Shown here: piece after piece, positions 1 through 9,182 of the stretch
Position numbering within the stretch: the stretch's first letter is position 1
Layout: each line of letters starts with the position of its first letter
DNA from: the human T2T-CHM13v2.0 reference genome, Homo sapiens
Reading direction: 5' to 3' (one strand)
DNA: 64,000 nt
Assembly (NCBI RefSeq): GCF_009914755.1
Contig: NC_060941.1
Translations under genes and position numbers: made by a program
Notes under the pieces: model-generated
The model's input: the letters and a program-made list of their open reading frames with translations, nothing else
What the model was told of the DNA's origin: nothing
The model's database searches: none

Positions 1-430
1 ATAAACAAAATGTGGCATATACATACAACGTATGCACATTTTTATTCAGCCATAAAAAGGAATGAAATTTTAATACAGGCTACAACATGGATGACCCTTA
101 AAAATGTTATGCTAAGTGAAAGAATCCAGACCCAGAAGGACAAATATTGTTTGATTCTCCTTATATGAGCTAACTAGAATATGCAAATTCATAGAGACAG
201 AAAATAGAAGTTACCATGGACTAAGGGTGGGGGGAATTGTGAGTCATTGTTTAATGGGTATGGAGTTTCTACCGGGGATTATTTAAAGTTCTGGAAATGG
301 ATAGTGGTGATGGTTGTACAATATTGTGAATGTACTTAATGCCACTGAATTGTACACATAAAATAATTTAAATGTACACATAAAATAGCTAAAATGCAGA
401 GATTAACTATTTTATACATAAAATAATTAA
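1..430 (+). mobile_element. Old L1 (L1MB/MC-type) 3'-end fragment
   Basis: Typical L1M 3' motifs: ataaacaaaatgtggcatatacataca, acaacatggatgaccctt, gttctggaaatggatagtggtgatggttgtacaa. Subfamily assignment is from memory. Confidence 0.75.
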
Positions 431-1395
431 AGCCCAGGAGTTCGAGGCTGCAGTGGGCTATGAGCACATGACTGCACACCACCCTGGGTGACAGAGCCAG
501 ACCCTGTCTTTAAAAAAAAAAAAAAAAAAAAGGTAAATTTTAGGTTATGCATATTTTACCACAGAAAAATTTGTTTAAGAGCCTGGCTATTGCATAGAAT
601 ATGGCCCCTCTTACAAACCCCTGATGGCATAAGTTTATGTAGTGGCCTTTCTATGAACCTACAGCCTTACTCTTGCACTGATCTACACATAGCTGTGGGG
701 CTCCTTCTACACTTCCAAGAATTTCCTGACCTCTGCCTGATTCTACAGTGAGCAGGGGATCCATAGCCCTGCCAGCCAGGAGCCCAGCTCCCCAGACTAT
801 GGACATCTACAACCAGGAGGCAGCCAGGCAAATGCTTCTGGAGTTAAAAGGCTGAGATTGAGCCCTGCCTTTGCCACTTACTTGGCACAGGTGCTTCATC
901 AAACGCCAACCTCTCCATCTCCACTCCTGTGCAATTGCAGCTACAAACTCTTACCTCGCAGGGTTATTGTAAGGATCAAATGAGGTCATACAATGGTCAA
1001 GTGCTGTACAAAGAGAGCTTTATGTTATTATGGTTGGAGTGATTCAGAAAGGATCAACCTAGTCACTTGTGCCCAGGAGTTTAAGACCAGCCTGGGCAAC
1101 ACAGTGAGATACCATCTCCACAAAAAATCAAAATGAACCAGGTGTGCCTGTAGTCCCAGGTACTCGGGAGGCTGAGGTGGAAGGATTGCTTGAGTGTGGG
1201 AGGTCAAACCTGCAGTGAGGTGTGATCGCGCCACTGCACTCCAGCCTGGGCGACAGAGCAAGACTCTGTCTCAAAAAAAAAAAAGGTTCAACTTAGGACT
1301 TAGGTCATCAACTTTAAGGAAAATTGATACCTTCAGAAGCTAGCTCTTTGCAAGCTAAACTTTTCTTGACATCACTCATGGTAAGGTCAGCAGTA

Positions 1396-1496
1396 GGGTG
1401 ACCAACTCTGCTGGTTTGCCCGAGACTGAGGGCATTCCCAGGATGGGAGTTTTCAGTGCTAAAACTGAGAAAGTTCTGGGTGTGAGTTGGTCACCC
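1396..1496. mobile_element. Short non-autonomous hAT DNA transposon (MER94-like)
   Basis: Perfect 13-bp terminal inverted repeats GGGTGACCAACTC (1396-1408) and GAGTTGGTCACCC (1484-1496). Family name recalled. Confidence 0.7.
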
Positions 1497-2144
1497 AAGC
1501 AGTAACCGCCCAATTGCTAATTCTAGAGCCTGCCTCCCTGGCCTGCTAGTCAATGCCTATTCGACCTGCCTTCCTTCTAGAACTTGGCCTCCAGAAGTAC
1601 TTGTGGATCTCCTGGCTAGATATACTTCCTCTGTTTGACTTTCATTGCTGACACTTCTCAGGATTTCTTCCTTTGCCTTTTGCTCTTATGATCCTACACT
1701 CCCTCCTTGGGAGATCTTGTTCATTCTCAGGACTCCTAAACACCTCCCACACAGTGGATAACTCCCAAATCTCCACGCAGACATTACTCTAGAGGCCAGC
1801 CTGGTATGTCCACCATCACTTACAAATACCCTCAGCTGTATCCAAAGTGAAATGTACAACCTTCACCACAGACTTTTTCCTTTTGGTTAATAACCCTAAC
1901 CCTCTTTTGCTGGGGCCAGAAGTCCACTTTCCCTTCCTCCTTCCTCTCCTTCAGCCACCATCCTCAGGCACCAAGTCCTACTGATCTAATCCCTAAATAT
2001 CTCTCAAATCTAGGTTGGGTGCAGTGGCTCACGCCTGTAATCCCAACACTTAGGGAGGCCGAGGCAGGCAGATCACTTGAGGTCAGGAATTTGAGACCAG
2101 CCTGACCAACATGGTGAAACCCTGTCTCGACTAAAAATTAGCTA

Positions 2145-2327
<183 letters not shown>

Positions 2328-2529
2328 TCATTCCCACTGCCATCGCCTCAATTCAGGCCTTGTCAACTCTTAGCTGGACAATAGCAACGGCCTTCTCGTG
2401 GTCGCCTGCTTCCGCTTCATCCCCTCTAACTGGTCCTCCATGTGGCTGCCAGAGTTGTCTTTCCATAATACAAATATGATCATGTCACTTCTTGGCTTGG
2501 GATTCCTCAAAGGTTCCCAATGGCCCAGC

Positions 2530-2945
2530 TCAGGGGTCAGCACACTTTCTGTAAAGGACTTGATGGTAAATAGTTTACGCTTTGGGGACAAGATGGTCTC
2601 TGTCTCAACTACTCAACTCTTATTGTGGCACAAAAGCAATACATAAATGAATGGGCATGGCTGTGGTCCAGTCAAACTTTATTTACTCAGCCAGGTGTGG
2701 TGGTGTGTGCCTGTGCTCCCAGCTATTCGGGAGGCTGAGGTGGAAGGATTACCTGAGCCCGGGAGTCGGAGGTTGCAGTGAGTCAAGATCATGCCACTGC
2801 CCTCCAGCCTGGGCCACAGAGTAAGAGGCTGTCTCAAAAGTAAACAAAAACAAAAACAAAAAAACTTTATTTACAAAAACATGTAGCATAACAGCCACCT
2901 CTCTCTTTGTTTGACCCAAGGGCAGTAGTTTGCTGACCTGGCCTA
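2530..2945 (+). mobile_element. MER58A-like hAT-Charlie element interrupted by an Alu fragment
   Basis: Begins caggggtcagcacactttctgtaaagg and ends gtagtttgctgacc. The segment aaactttattta occurs on both sides of the inserted Alu piece. Confidence 0.65.
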
Positions 2946-2953
2946 GGGAATAG

Positions 2954-3215
<262 letters not shown>

Positions 3216-4801
3216 TAGGCCTCCCAAAGTGCTGGGATTACAGGTGTGAGCCACCATGCCCAGCAGAATCCAAACTTCTTAGCATAACCCAAAAGACTCT
3301 TTACATGCAGCAGCCATGGGAAATGCCTTGCTCTCCCCAGAACGTAGCACCATGCCTTTGTATGTGCTGCCCCCTCCATTTGAAACATCCTTCCCCATCT
3401 CCCAAGTTGAGGGAGTCCACTAGTTCTTCAAGGTCTATTCTAAATGTTAGCTTCTCTGTGGAGCTGCCCCACAACCCCTTCAGGAGGAGTTGGTCGTCCC
3501 TCACCGACTCCAGCACTTTCTGTCTCTTTTACCACATTTATCATTCTATGAATGTATATGGTATTTATTTGTCATCATGTCTTTTGACTGTGATGCTTCA
3601 AAACCAGTCTTATTTATACTTCTTCCTCCCCCTAGTCCCAAGCACATTGCTGGGATTATGATAGGGTAATAATAGCTACTGCTAAACACCATATGTGTGT
3701 TCTCATTTAATACTCTCAGCAAAGCCCATGGAGGTAGGCACTGTTATCCCCATTATACAGATGAGGAAATGAGGCGTGGACAGTAGAAGTAACTTGCCCA
3801 GGTCACACAGCTAGTAATTGCATAGCCAAGACTAGCACTCAGATCTCTGACCCTGAAGCCTAAAGTTTGATTACCATATTATACTGACCAGTAGTTATTT
3901 GCTTAATTAATAGATGTATTAAGACAATAAATGTATTAATTATTTCCATGGCACAAGATGTCAAAATTACATGGAAAGTGGCTTTCCCTTCGGTCAAGAG
4001 CCCTGATTATAGTCACGGAGAAGAGCTGGCTAAATTCCCTGAGAACAGATGGGGCCCAGGAGAAGGTCACTGACTAGCTGATTATGAGCATGGGAAAAAG
4101 GACCTGAGCTATATTTCCACCATGTACCAAACCAGAGCAAGGTGGACCACTCCCATTTTAATCCTTCCAACAACTCTGCAAACTCCATGTTGTTATTTTC
4201 CTATTTAAATGAGGAACTGAGGCTTTAAAAGGTCAGAGATTGGCCAAGACCACACAGCTATTATAGATAATGTCAGAAGCAGGATTAAAACTCAAGTCTC
4301 AATGGCTCTAAAACCACAAGTAATTTCCACAAATCCAGTTTGTTCCAAAGAAAGAGTAACCAGCAGGGTCTCCTGATTTCCCACATAGCATCCAGCAAAT
4401 CCTGTCACCTGTCTCCAGCTCAGAGTTCCCACTTATAGAGGGGGGCTATAATCCTCCCAGCAGAGACAGAATGAACAAAACCAGGTTATGTCTCCATTAT
4501 TCTTTCCTTGGAAAATGGCTCTACATAGAAATCTATCTGGGCTGGGTGCGGTAGCTCACACCTATAATCCCAGCACTTTAGGAGGCCAAGGCAGGAGGAT
4601 CACTTGATCTCAGGAGTTCAAGATGAGCCTGGGCACATGGGGAGACCCCATCTCTACAAAAAATTAAAAAATTAAACAATAGCTGGGTGCAGTAGCTCAC
4701 GTCTGTAATCCCAGCACTTTGGGAGGCCGAGACGGGCAGATCACTTGAGGTCAGGAGTTCAAGACCAGCCTGGCCAACATGGAGAAACCCTGTCTCTACT
4801 A

Positions 4802-5072
<271 letters not shown>

Positions 5073-7429
5073 TCAGTACCACCCTGCATTATCCTCCCCC
5101 TTCCCAGGGGCAACCACTATTCTGAATTGGATGTTTGTTATTTCCATGCACTTTCATACGCTTTTATTACATAGCATATATCCTCAAACAATATAAAATA
5201 TTATTTTACCTAGTTTGTAAAAATAATACCACACTGTCATTACTCTTCTGAAACTTGCTCTTTTTGCTCATCATTGAAAGATTCCTATTATTTTTAAAAA
5301 AAGAATAACAAAATAAAGAAGAAAGATTCCTATTAATATGATTAGCTCTAATTTATTCATTTCACTGTTGTATAATATTCCATGATGTGAATATAACACA
5401 GTCTGTCTATTCTGTTGATAAATATTCATGGTTGTTTCTGGTTTTTGCTATTTGCAAAATAATGCTGCTATGAACATTGTGAGACATATCTTCAGGTGCT
5501 CACTGTGCAAGATATTTTCTGGTGCATATATTTAGGAATAGAATTGCTGAGTCACAGGAGGTTGACATCTCCAATTATCCTAGATATTGTCCCCCTCACT
5601 TTTTTTTTTTTTTTTGAGATGGAGTCTTGCTGTGTCTCCCAAGCTGGAGTTCAGAGGTGTGATCTCGGCTCACTGCAACCTCCGCCTCCTGGATTCAAGT
5701 GATTCTCCTGCCTCAGCCTCCTGAGTAGCAGAGACTACAGGCGTGCACCACCATGCCTGGCTAATTTTTTTATTTTTAGTAGAGACGGGGTTTCACCATG
5801 TTAGCCAGCTTGGTCTCGAACTCCCAACTTCAGGCAACTGCCCGCCTTGGCCTCCCAAAATGCTGGGATTACAGGCGTGAGCCACTGCGCCTGCCGCCCC
5901 CGCCACACACACTTTTTAGGACCTAGACATCAATAATCTGAGGCTGAAAAGCAGCTTCAATTGCAGCAAGCAGGACTGAAATTAGACCCTGCAAGGAACT
6001 TTTTTAGTTGTTAAAGGATTGTTAGAAATCGGCCCAAGTTGTGGAAGACACTGGAGGAATGTCTGTCACTCTGCTTTTCTGACATGCCTCAAGTACAGCT
6101 CAGTCTGGACTCAGTTCTAATTGTAGCCTAAAGATTTCAAAATTAATTAAATCGGCATATATGAGTTGAGCTCCTATTCCACGCAAAGTGCTAAGCTGGG
6201 AGCAGAAGCTTGTGTCCTCTTCCTGCAAAGCACATCGTCACCACCCCTCCTTGCAACTGAGATGAAAGACCAATGAGAGACATGTGCAAAGTTACACAGC
6301 AGGATGGGATTTAAATAACTGCTGAAGACCACAGTAAAGGGGAAGTCACAAAATACTGCGTGACTAATTGTTAAGTGAAATTGCCTTGGAGGCACAGAGG
6401 AAAAAAATCAGAGCAGTGGTCAAGGAACGTTGCACAGAAAAAAGGTAGTATCTGAGCAATAATAGTAGAATGTAGGTGATAATCATGGCATCTACTACTC
6501 ATTGATGAACATTGTGTGCCTTGCACTTTACTCAGAGTATCTTGTTTAATCCTCACAATGACCCTGTGAAGAAAGTATGATTAGTCTCTTCTGACACAGC
6601 AGGAAACTGATCACCAGAAGACCAAGTAGCTTACGCAAGCTCACACAACCACCGAGTGGCGGGGCAGGATTCGAACTTAGTCCTGAAGCCTCCCACGTCA
6701 GAGGTCCCCGGGAGGGAACACAAGCAAAGGGTGGGAGGTAGGGGAGGGAGCCCCAGGCACAGCTCCTGGTGTGGCTAGAATGGAGGGCTTCTTTGGAAAA
6801 AGTAGGTGATCCGGCTAGAAAAGGAGGTCCAGGCTGGCTCATGGAAGATGCTGGTTTCCAGGCATAGGAACTTTAAGTGATTAATTCAAGGAGATTCCAC
6901 AGCGAGGCAGGTGTATGTTGGAATAGAGGAAAGGGCAGTGCAGGCAGAGAGGTGCCTGGCAGGTTCAGCAACAGCAGTGCAGGGGGCCGAAAATACAAAC
7001 TTGAACAAGGAAGATGACTTGGGGACCCAACAGAGGGGACAGGTGTAGGAGAGACTTACAAGGAAGAATGTGTGGGGACTTGGCTTCCAACAGCCGTAAG
7101 AGCAACTGAGGGAGGAATTGACAATAGATTCCACAATTGTGGGTGGCCCAGGAAGCTAGGCAAGCAAAAGCAACGCTGTAGGCAGCTGAGGTTAATACAA
7201 ATGGCTAACGTTTGTTACCAGCTACTATCTATAAGCACTTTACATGTATAAACTCATTTCACCCTCACAGCATTCCTATGAAGTAGGAGTGAGGATCTAT
7301 TATGATTTCCGTTTTTCAGTTAGAGAAACTGGGGTACAGAGAAGTTAAGCAATTTGTCTGAGGTTACACCACTGGTAAATGGCAGAGCTGGGATTTGAAC
7401 CTGGGTTCCAGAGGCCTCACTCTTCATCA

Positions 7430-8485
7430 CTTCACTAAACTGTGTCTGTTGAGGTAACATCTTCAGAAAGAAGCAGGGTTTTCCACTCCCACTCCACATT
7501 CCCCACCCTCAAAGACCAAGCAGGATGGCAGGATTTTTTTGCTGAGTGGCATTGCTGGGGGGGAGTGTCAGGTCTCTGCTGCTACCCTAAGCCAGCTGCT
7601 TGTCACCACCGGGCAGTGAGCATGGGGCGTGCGGTGCTGGGGCCTGCACTGCTGGGGCACTCACCAGCAGGAGGGCACCTGGAGCACGGTCCTTCCTCAT
7701 CACAGTGGAGCAGAAGTAGCACTAGCTGGTGCAGGCCACAGAGCGTGCCTGGCAAGGGAAGACCCAGCCCAGGTAGCACAACTCCATCGGGTTCAGGAGG
7801 AAGCAGCCCAACCCCACCTGCACATGAAGTTCAGGAAGATTTTCTTCCTCATGGCTCTGGACACAAAGCAGTCAGGACTGGAGGGACAGGGGAGGAGTGG
7901 CAGTGAAGCAACCATGGCACATCACACCCAGAGAGTAGACCCCACCAGGAAGGCCAGCTCCATGCAGGCCCGCAGCACCACGTGGGCAGTGCAGACAGCC
8001 AGGACCCTGTATGACTGCAGGCTGGGGTACCAGGTGGCAGCCCCAAGGCATTTGGGGAAAAACCTCCTCTCCTACTAAGAGCTGCCCCTCTAGAAAGAAA
8101 GAAGCCCCCAGGGGCCCCAGCCTGGGTCCAGGGAGAGCCCCTCCAGCTGCCAGCTCTTGCACGGTTTCCAGCAGGTACACCCTCTCCACATCCACTGTCT
8201 CCCATTCACCATCTAGTGCAGCACACAGACAACAAAGAAGATGGAGGGTACGGCCACCAGCACAATCTGGAAAGCCCCAGCGGAAGTGGGAGAAGTGGTC
8301 ATTGGTGCAGCCAGGCCGCAGGGTATTGCAGATGAACTTGCAGTGCTCATCCCACAGACAGCACTTCCCAGCAGGGCGACAAGCAGGATGTGTAAGACCA
8401 GGACAGTGAGCCATACCTTGCCAACCACGGTGGAATCGTTCTGCACTCGGGTCAGGAGCCAGCCCAGGAATGACCAGTCGCTCAT
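7430..8485 (-). pseudogene. Disrupted connexin (gap junction protein) pseudogene, non-processed; 3' end approximate
   Basis: Minus strand from ATG 8485: MSDWSFLGWLLTRVQNDSTVVGKVWLTVLVLHILLVALLGSAV /fs ~8355/ WDEHCKFICNTLRPGCTN-DHFSHFR /fs/ AFQIVLVAVPSIFFVVCVLH* (TAG 8215-8213). Then TM3 RVLAVCTAHVVLRACMELAFLVG (~8008-7941), E2 GCDVPWLLHCHS /fs/ PCPSSPDCFVSRAMRKKIFLNFM, and TM4 VGLGCFLLNPMELCYLGW (~7820-7764). These match the connexin signatures MxDWxxL, STxxGKxWL, DExxxFxCNTxxPGC, DCFVSRPTEK and LNxxEL. Confidence 0.93.
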
Positions 8486-8495
8486 CTTGTGATTT

Positions 8496-8557
8496 CTGTG
8501 GACACAGAAATCACAAGAAATTGAAGTGAGGGGACAGGAAGGGAAGGGGACGAAAAC
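8496..8557 (-). other. Splice acceptor (polypyrimidine tract + CAG) in front of the connexin coding exon
   Basis: Minus strand: gttttcgtccccttcccttcctgtcccctcacttcaatttcttgtgatttctgtgtccacAG|aaatcacaagATG. The AG is at 8497-8496, 10 nt before the ATG, which matches the usual connexin layout of a non-coding first exon plus one coding exon. Confidence 0.7.
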
Positions 8558-9182
8558 ATAATGCCCCCACAGCCAGATATTTGCAAAGCTATTTCTGGCC
8601 CACAGCAAGAGCTCCAGCTCCATCTGTGCCTGACGCCCAGGCATGCCACTCGCTGCCTGACAAGGATGGGAAGAACAAGCTGGCAGAGAAAAGGACACTG
8701 CAGAAGAAAAGATGGAAGCAGTGACTCCCAGAAGGAGCCCAACGCAGCCCAACATTCACCAAGACAGGCTGCACACTTCTATTACAGTTAGGCTTCCACT
8801 GAACTCTTCCTAACTCAACAGGCTTTCGGGCCTCCCAACTGTCTTGGCATTTTCTTCAGATCGACATAGTACCAGGCATATTTCTCCCAAGATGCCACGG
8901 TGGAAATTCATGACCTAGATTGTGTTTCTTCCGAGTCCAGGGTAACATGTTTTTTGACTACTATGTCAGGGTTTGAAAGAGACAGGCCTTACATCCTCCT
9001 GTCTCTGTCCAGTGGATTCTCCTTAAGGCCTCATATTGCAACAATCTCATTTTACTTTACATTTCTGCAGCTTCTGACCCTGAGAATTACTGAAAAAATT
9101 CCCAAGGGTATAGCTTGTGGGGCATTTACACCCATTATTTCTGTCAACACTCTCCCTTCTGCCTCTCAAATAAACATGTAGT

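What the first reader, a model, noticed from the sequence alone, without database searches (positions are those of the whole stretch)
7430..8560. Fossil of a lost connexin gene (unitary pseudogene candidate) hidden across all three minus-strand frames
Seen: no single ORF shows it, but stitching frames recovers the connexin N-terminus, TM1, E1, TM2, TM3, E2 and TM4. E1 keeps C-x6-C but has lost its third Cys in a small deletion near 8300. E2 keeps all three Cys (C-x4-C-x5-C across a frameshift). There are at least five frameshifts and a stop at 8215-8213. An upstream splice acceptor is present and I see no poly(A) or TSD. Inference: this is an in-situ decayed gene rather than a retrocopy, and it does not look like a recent copy of any human connexin I recognise. 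From memory and unverified, it may be the orthologue of the Cx39.2 lineage that is intact in fish, marsupials and some bats and that databases label GJA4-like/GJA4P. It would then record loss of a whole gap-junction channel type in our lineage.
Basis: partly seen in the sequence, partly recalled or inferred. Interest (0 to 1): 0.8.

Follow-up and report, generated by a model that had tools for sequence, protein, structure and literature searches.

The report
Dead connexin gene, already described
This stretch is the broken remnant of a gap-junction (connexin) gene that fish, bats and some other mammals still carry intact; it is real, but it is already annotated and its true identity (Cx39.2/GJD5, not GJA4) was published in 2020.

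Summary
On the minus strand, from the ATG at 8485 down to about 7710, a single-exon connexin can be read only by changing frame. Against the closest intact relative found (P0201) it shows 7 frameshifts, 2 in-frame TAG stops (8215-8213 and 7724-7722), a lost codon in TM1 and a net 20-nt loss in E1. The alignment scores 748, against 31-39 for shuffles.

All 5 Cx39.2/GJD5-type proteins tested score 422-748. All 20 human connexins score 131-249, with GJA4 at 227. In a tree the relic sits with a bat protein and an unnamed mammal-like protein (100/100), inside the fish "gap junction delta-2-like" group and outside every human connexin. A clade with GJA4 is rejected at p 2.6e-5. The human genome holds no second GJD5-type locus.

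It is not new. Mikalsen et al. 2020 (PMC7066803) showed that human "GJA4P" (NG_026166, chr17) is Cx39.2P and proposed the name GJD5P. Still open are synteny-based proof of in-situ decay and the dating of the loss; neither could be tested here. Interest is low.

The parts
8496..8545 (-). Acceptor-like site: pyrimidine-rich tract ending in CAG (G at 8496), 10 nt upstream of the ATG
   Evidence: It has 14/20 and 30/40 pyrimidines; 75 of 4668 YAG sites in the window are as rich.
8357..8485 (-). Block A: start codon, N-terminal helix and TM1. One codon (Leu29 of P0201) is missing near 8402.
8277..8354 (-). Block B: extracellular loop E1 in a second frame. Cys codons lie at 8330-8328 and 8309-8307; the third Cys is absent; a net 20 nt are lost between 8301 and 8276.
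8216..8275 (-). Block C: TM2, back in the frame of the ATG
8213..8215 (-). In-frame TAG at the codon that is Gln99 in P0201. It ends the 90-codon ORF that starts at the ATG. A frame change lies at or just after it.
8067..8213 (-). Cytoplasmic loop, alignable only to the mammal-type relatives P0201 and P0202
7937..8065 (-). End of the loop and TM3
7894..7935 (-). First part of E2, with the first E2 Cys codon at 7902-7900
7823..7891 (-). Second part of E2 (Cys codons 7888-7886 and 7870-7868) and the entry into TM4
7710..7820 (-). TM4 and the proximal C-terminal tail, with a second in-frame TAG at 7724-7722. This is the last stretch with demonstrable similarity.

Best explanation
This is the non-functional relic of the connexin gene Cx39.2/GJD5. 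RefSeq calls it 'gap junction protein alpha 4 pseudogene' (LOC100421028, GJA4P), which misnames it.

The ancestral gene encoded a four-helix gap-junction channel subunit on a single coding exon, preceded by a 5' intron. In the human lineage it decayed where it lay. The reading frame now breaks after codon 44, and the ORF from the ATG stops at a TAG after 90 codons. Six further frameshifts, a second stop and deletions in TM1 and E1 follow. No connexin can be made from it.

Shown here: the lesions, the family, the placement with GJD5-type proteins and away from GJA4, the absence of a second GJD5-type locus in this genome, and that a close relative's copy (P0002) shares the lesions from 8402 to 7936.

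Inferred: that the decay happened in place (a unitary pseudogene) rather than in a retrocopy, and that the ancestral protein formed gap-junction channels. The latter rests on family membership alone. The one function table I saw lists no known phenotype for zebrafish gjd5 (PMC9073686, table passage).
For: Connexin family:
- Pfam gives E 9.7e-9 and 5.1e-7 on separate frame pieces.
- All 22 PDB sequences matched are gap-junction proteins.
- The own-genome Pfam scan lists this locus twice among its 29 matches.

Lesion map against P0201:
- Score 748, 180 of 255 identical, 7 frameshifts, 2 TAG stops.
- Controls score 31-39.

Orthogroup:
- 5 of 5 GJD5-type references score 422-748, against 131-249 for 20 of 20 human connexins.
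- Identity to Anguilla anguilla P0129 is 53% and to GJA4 41%. The paper reports 55% to eel cx39.2 and 38% to GJA4.
- In the tree the relic plus P0201 and P0202 form a group at 100/100, within the fish group at 94/95.
- The AU test rejects a GJA4 clade at p 2.6e-5.
- The fish relatives carry the database name 'gap junction delta-2 protein(-like)'. The paper says this is how cx39.2/gjd5 is usually labelled.

Single locus:
- P0201 searched against the whole genome finds only loci already, plus this one.

Not a retrocopy:
- There is an acceptor-like site at 8496.
- No adjacent poly(A) is present.
- No TSD above chance was found.

Age:
- P0002 is 180 of 201 identical to the human reading.
- It runs through the same wrong frames across the sites at 8355, 8276, 8214, 8066 and 7936, so these lesions are shared.

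In print:
- PMC7066803.
Against: - Synteny with an intact GJD5 in other vertebrates was not tested. No vertebrate genome other than this one is searchable here. The main text of PMC7066803 does not mention CRYBA1, MYO18A or NUFIP2 (0 occurrences each).
- Connexin coding regions are intronless, so the lack of introns says nothing about retroposition.
- The acceptor-like site has a chance rate of about 0.0006 per base per strand, which is only modest support.
- The stitched sequence used in the tree followed the path found with P0201, which could favour that grouping. The per-reference scores do not share this bias.
- The ultrafast bootstrap had not fully settled (correlation 0.989).
- The names of the human loci (GJA4 = L005 and so on) come from recalled chromosomal positions and protein lengths, not from a tool.
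- P0201 and P0006 come from unnamed records, so their species and gene names are unknown.
Confidence: 0.9

Rival explanations
1. It is a processed retrocopy of a GJD5 mRNA that landed here, and the parent gene was later lost from the genome.
For: The coding region has no introns, as in any connexin, so a retrocopy would look much the same over the coding part. An exact 11-nt direct repeat brackets the relic at 8528-8538 and 7033-7043.
Against: A pyrimidine tract plus CAG lies 10 nt upstream of the ATG, where an mRNA copy would carry exon-1 sequence. No A-rich stretch lies next to 7043 or anywhere between 7710 and 5616, apart from an A7 run. About one exact 11-mer pair is expected by chance in 3 kb, and three were seen, only one of which brackets the relic. 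No second GJD5-type remnant exists elsewhere in the genome, so this reading needs the parent to have vanished without trace.
Confidence: 0.06
2. It is a decayed duplicate of GJA4 (Cx37), as the RefSeq name says.
For: GJA4 is the best intact human match to P0201 by single-frame search (201.9 bits, 49% identity). That probably explains the name.
Against: GJA4 scores 227, against 422-748 for GJD5-type proteins. The tree places GJA4 among the alpha connexins, far from the relic. The AU test rejects the clade at p 2.6e-5. PMC7066803 reaches the same verdict.
Confidence: 0.01
3. The relic is dead as a connexin but is still used, for example as a transcribed non-coding RNA or as a short N-terminal peptide from the 90-codon ORF.
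For: The ATG, the acceptor-like site and a 90-codon ORF remain.
Against: Nothing here tests transcription. The lesions look like neutral decay. The RefSeq functional elements listed for the window do not overlap it (table given with the task). P0002 differs from human at 21 of 201 aligned positions and by further indels, with no sign that the ORF is kept: P0002 reads through where human stops.
Confidence: 0.03

Closest known systems
Cx39.2 / GJD5 orthogroup (Mikalsen et al. 2020, PMC7066803; 2021, PMC7914757). The human relic is proposed there as Cx39.2P / GJD5P.
   Same: It is the same locus. It is the only connexin pseudogene found on chromosome 17, with the same RefSeq name. The placement with fish 'gjd2-like' proteins and a bat protein is the same, and the identity levels are similar (53% to eel here, 55% in the paper).
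   Different: Nothing of substance differs.
GJA4 (Cx37), the gene the RefSeq name points to
   Same: It has the connexin fold and motifs. It is the best intact human match to GJD5-type proteins (49% to P0201).
   Different: It belongs to a different orthogroup. Identity to the relic is 41%, against 71% for P0201, and a clade of the two is rejected.
Other human connexin pseudogenes seen: the Cx43-like open frame on C5 (L015), the relic on the X chromosome (L023/L027), and the GJC3-like copy with 2 TGA on C7 (L020). The names GJA1P1 and GJA6P are recalled.
   Same: They are broken or redundant connexin copies in the same genome.
   Different: By the loci listed and my recall of their names, each of these appears to have an intact human relative. 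This was not tested here: no identities among them were computed. The relic here has no intact human counterpart, so it records the loss of a whole orthogroup.

Membership tests
Connexin (Pfam PF00029) | Significant match to the family profile | tested here: met
   E 9.7e-9 (35.7 bits, cut-off 31.3) for 8213-8485, and E 5.1e-7 (30.1 bits, just under the cut-off) for 7793-7921; both halves are found in the genome-wide scan.
Connexin (Pfam PF00029) | N-terminus, four transmembrane helices and two extracellular loops in order | tested here: met
   all are recovered in order against P0201, but only across 7 frame changes.
Connexin (Pfam PF00029) | E1 motif C-x6-C-x3-C (motif recalled; present in P0201 and the fish proteins) | tested here: not met
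   only two Cys codons remain (8330-8328, 8309-8307). The third is gone, beside a net 20-nt loss. This is a lesion of the relic, and P0002 still has a Cys there.
Connexin (Pfam PF00029) | E2 motif C-x4-C-x5-C | tested here: met
   Cys codons at 7902-7900, 7888-7886 and 7870-7868, with one nucleotide missing between the first two.
Cx39.2 / GJD5 orthogroup | Groups with GJD5-type proteins and not with any other connexin orthogroup | tested here: met
   100/100 with P0201 and P0202; 94/95 with the fish group; GJA4 clade rejected; 5 of 5 against 20 of 20 scores. The outgroups were human connexins only. Other orthogroups that humans lack, such as gjd6 and gjd1, were not sampled.
Cx39.2 / GJD5 orthogroup | Lies at the chromosomal position of GJD5 in species that keep the gene | not testable with these tools
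   No other vertebrate genome is searchable here.
Unitary pseudogene | Disabling lesions in the only copy of the orthogroup in the genome | tested here: met
   (7 frameshifts, 2 stops). (no other GJD5-type locus; only the best candidates are scored, so a very decayed second relic could be missed).
Processed pseudogene | Poly(A) tract at the 3' end and target-site duplications | tested here: not met

The most novel reading that the evidence does not exclude
GJD5 was lost several times independently in placental mammals, and the human-lineage loss is old enough to be shared with at least one other species. P0002 shares the human lesions from 8402 to 7936. The bat protein P0202 has none of them: it keeps Leu29's position filled, an intact E1, an in-frame TM2 and Gln at the human stop. 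Yet P0202 is cut short at 196 residues and has odd residues at conserved sites. A lesion-by-lesion map over a mammalian alignment, which I did not find in the main texts I read, could date each loss and tie it to a tissue or physiology. That could give a first clue to what this unstudied channel does.
Probability: 0.5. Interest if true: 0.3.

Novelty: already known. Interest (0 to 1): 0.15.

Why it matters
It records that the human lineage lost one whole connexin type, which fish, amphibians, marsupials and some placentals retain (PMC7914757). The point is published, and the locus is annotated as a pseudogene. The practical value is small. The RefSeq name (GJA4 pseudogene) is misleading, and the annotated span (7770-8485) stops short of the alignable end at 7710. 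What GJD5 does is unknown even in zebrafish (PMC9073686), so the consequence of the loss cannot be stated.

Tried and rejected
1. C-terminal tail. I looked for the fish tail (which ends in a conserved short motif) in window 1-9000 using 67 fish tails, and by frameshift-aware alignment over 7250-7720. Nothing exceeded the shuffles: the best score was 46, against shuffles of up to 40. A 12-residue match at 6609-6574 (7 of 12 identical, E 0.45-1.5) is at chance level.

2. GTGAGT after the Leu run at about 7665-7660. I considered that it marks an intron before a last coding exon and dropped the idea. P0006 comes from a 2.2-kb contig and runs uninterrupted to the end of the tail, so I inferred its coding region is contiguous, assuming the unspliced contig was translated directly. 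No downstream exon was found either.

3. The first word-based search, with the 90-residue piece, found only 2 proteins among 561 candidates. The exhaustive search and a search with P0002 residues 1-75 were needed to reach the relatives.

4. The supplements of PMC7066803 (the alignments, the mammal list and possibly positions) could not be opened. They may already contain a lesion map or positions.

5. Earlier findings of this scan were not open.

6. Literature on synteny: 'cryba1' + 'nufip2' + 'connexin' found 0 papers. 'connexin' + 'unitary pseudogene' found 10 papers; none of the 10 titles or abstract openings listed concerns this locus.

7. Name trap: Premzl 2019 (PMC6858305) uses 'GJD5' for GJE1/Cx23, which is a different gene.

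Full report
What is there.
On the minus strand an ATG at 8485-8483 opens a reading that begins like every connexin and then loses the frame. I scanned eight frame pieces against Pfam. Four match Connexin (PF00029):
- the N-terminal piece 8213-8485 at E 9.7e-9 (35.7 bits, cut-off 31.3);
- the E2/TM4 piece 7793-7921 at E 5.1e-7;
- two overlapping E1 pieces at E 0.0025 and 0.013.
The N-terminal piece matches 22 distinct PDB sequences, all gap-junction proteins. A Pfam scan of the window's own genome (3.1 Gb, 24 contigs) gives 29 matches. Two of them are this locus, at window 7817-8008 and 8207-8479.

Finding the right reference.
- A word-based search with the N-terminal piece found only two proteins: a near-identical ORF (P0001) and P0002, a 203-residue ORF from an unnamed record that is a close relative's copy of the same relic.
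- The exhaustive search of cluster representatives found 79 proteins at E up to 0.001. The best full-length ones include P0006.
- A search with P0006 returned 1911 proteins at E up to 1e-10. In the 120 listed, every organism name is, to my knowledge, a ray-finned fish. The usual name is 'gap junction delta-2 protein(-like)'.
- A search with residues 1-75 of P0002 gave two more. P0201 is a 293-residue intact connexin from an unnamed record. P0202 is a 196-residue protein of the bat Molossus molossus.

Lesion map.
No frameshift-aware aligner is installed, so I wrote one: local, BLOSUM62, gap penalties 11/1, frameshift 10, stop -6. Against P0201 it gives score 748, with 180 of 255 aligned codons identical, from 8485 to 7710. 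The lesions are:
- one codon missing in TM1 near 8402;
- a frame change at 8356-8355;
- a net loss of 20 nt in E1 between 8301 and 8276, which removes the third E1 cysteine and includes a frame change at 8276;
- TAG at 8215-8213 where P0201 has Gln99, with a frame change at or just after it;
- frame changes at 8066, at 7936 (with two codons lost), at 7893-7892 and at 7822-7821;
- a second TAG at 7724-7722.
That makes 7 frameshifts and 2 stops. The E1 cysteine codons at 8330-8328 and 8309-8307 survive, as do all three E2 cysteine codons (7902-7900, 7888-7886, 7870-7868). The same protein scores 34 on the opposite strand and 31-39 on ten shuffles. Below 7710 neither fish tails nor the P0201 tail score above shuffles.

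Which connexin.
I cut 20 human connexin proteins from the loci. Their gene names are recalled from position and length. GJD2 and GJD4 are exon-2 parts only. I left out GJE1 and the pseudogene loci L015, L020, L023, L025, L027 and L029. With each reference given its own best path, the scores are as follows:
- the 5 GJD5-type proteins score 748 (P0201, 71%), 455 (P0202, 66%), 444 (Anguilla anguilla P0129, 53%), 437 (P0159, 50%) and 422 (P0006, 49%);
- all 20 human proteins score 131-249 (36-46%), with GJA4 at 227 (41%).
I built a maximum-likelihood tree of 31 rows: the 20 human proteins, 10 GJD5-type proteins picked from about 125 in hand, and the read-through with X at each break. It uses 393 columns and IQ-TREE with LG+C20+F+G4. 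The relic joins P0202 (99/85), then P0201 (100/100). This group lies inside the fish group (94/95), apart from all human connexins. The bootstrap had not quite settled (0.989). Forcing the relic and GJA4 into one clade costs 169.8 log-likelihood units, with AU p 2.6e-5. P0201 searched against the whole genome finds only loci already listed, plus this one. Its best intact human match is the locus I take to be GJA4 (49% identity), which probably explains the RefSeq name.

In place, or a retrocopy?
A pyrimidine-rich tract ending in CAG (G at 8496) lies 10 nt before the ATG. Only 75 of 4668 YAG sites in the window are as pyrimidine-rich. There is no poly(A) next to the relic, and no flanking repeat above chance. 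The genome has no second GJD5-type remnant. These points favour decay in place, but the decisive test is synteny in species that keep the gene, and it could not be run here.

Age.
P0002 is 180 of 201 identical to the human reading. It runs through the same wrong frames across the sites at 8355, 8276, 8214, 8066 and 7936, and it lacks the same TM1 codon and the same E1 segment. Relative to human it has one extra frame change near 8331, and it keeps a cysteine where human E1 has histidine. The gene was therefore already dead in the common ancestor of the two. The bat P0202 has none of the human lesions.

What is known.
[quoted passage not shown] It gives 55% identity to eel cx39.2 against 38% to human GJA4.
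- The same paper says orthologues occur in opossum, several Afrotheria and bats, 'sometimes as obvious pseudogenes', and that the relic should be called GJD5P.
- Its main text has no occurrence of 'frameshift', CRYBA1, MYO18A or NUFIP2.
- PMC7914757 (passages) reports gjd5 in all fish groups, amphibians, marsupials and placentals, but in no reptile or bird.
- PMC9073686 (table passage) lists zebrafish gjd5/Cx40.5 with no known phenotype, low expression and no human counterpart.
- PMC6858305 (passages) uses 'GJD5' for GJE1/Cx23, which is a name clash.

Verdict.
Synteny and dating remain open.

Noticed in passing
This rests on my memory of the consensus, and no repeat library was available to test it.
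   Followed up: no
window 7770-8485 (RefSeq span of LOC100421028): The annotated span ends inside TM4. Similarity to GJD5-type proteins runs on to 7710 and includes a second TAG at 7724-7722.
   Followed up: yes
window 6574-6609, minus strand: A 12-residue match (7 of 12 identical) to a conserved motif of the fish GJD5 tails, at E 0.45-1.5, which is chance level. It might be a last trace of the tail, or nothing.
   Followed up: partly
P0202 (Molossus molossus): The bat protein stops at 196 residues, departs from P0201 after about residue 188, and has unusual residues at conserved E1 and TM2 positions. It shares none of the human lesions, so it may be an independently decaying copy.
   Followed up: partly
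L020 = G000:C7:101230434-101234054: A connexin-like locus with 2 in-frame TGA, about 60 kb from the locus I take to be GJC3 (L019). It is probably a decayed duplicate.
   Followed up: no
L029 = G000:C2:216402514-216405792: A weak Pfam Connexin match below the cut-off (29.3 bits, E 9.4e-4, profile 42-138) in an open frame of 118 residues. It is not matched by P0201.
   Followed up: no
window 5600-5615: An A16 run on the minus strand, about 2.1 kb downstream of the relic. This is too far to be its poly(A) tail, and it is more likely the tail of a SINE.
   Followed up: no
literature: 'GJD5' is used for two different genes: Cx39.2 in PMC7066803 and GJE1/Cx23 in PMC6858305.
   Followed up: yes
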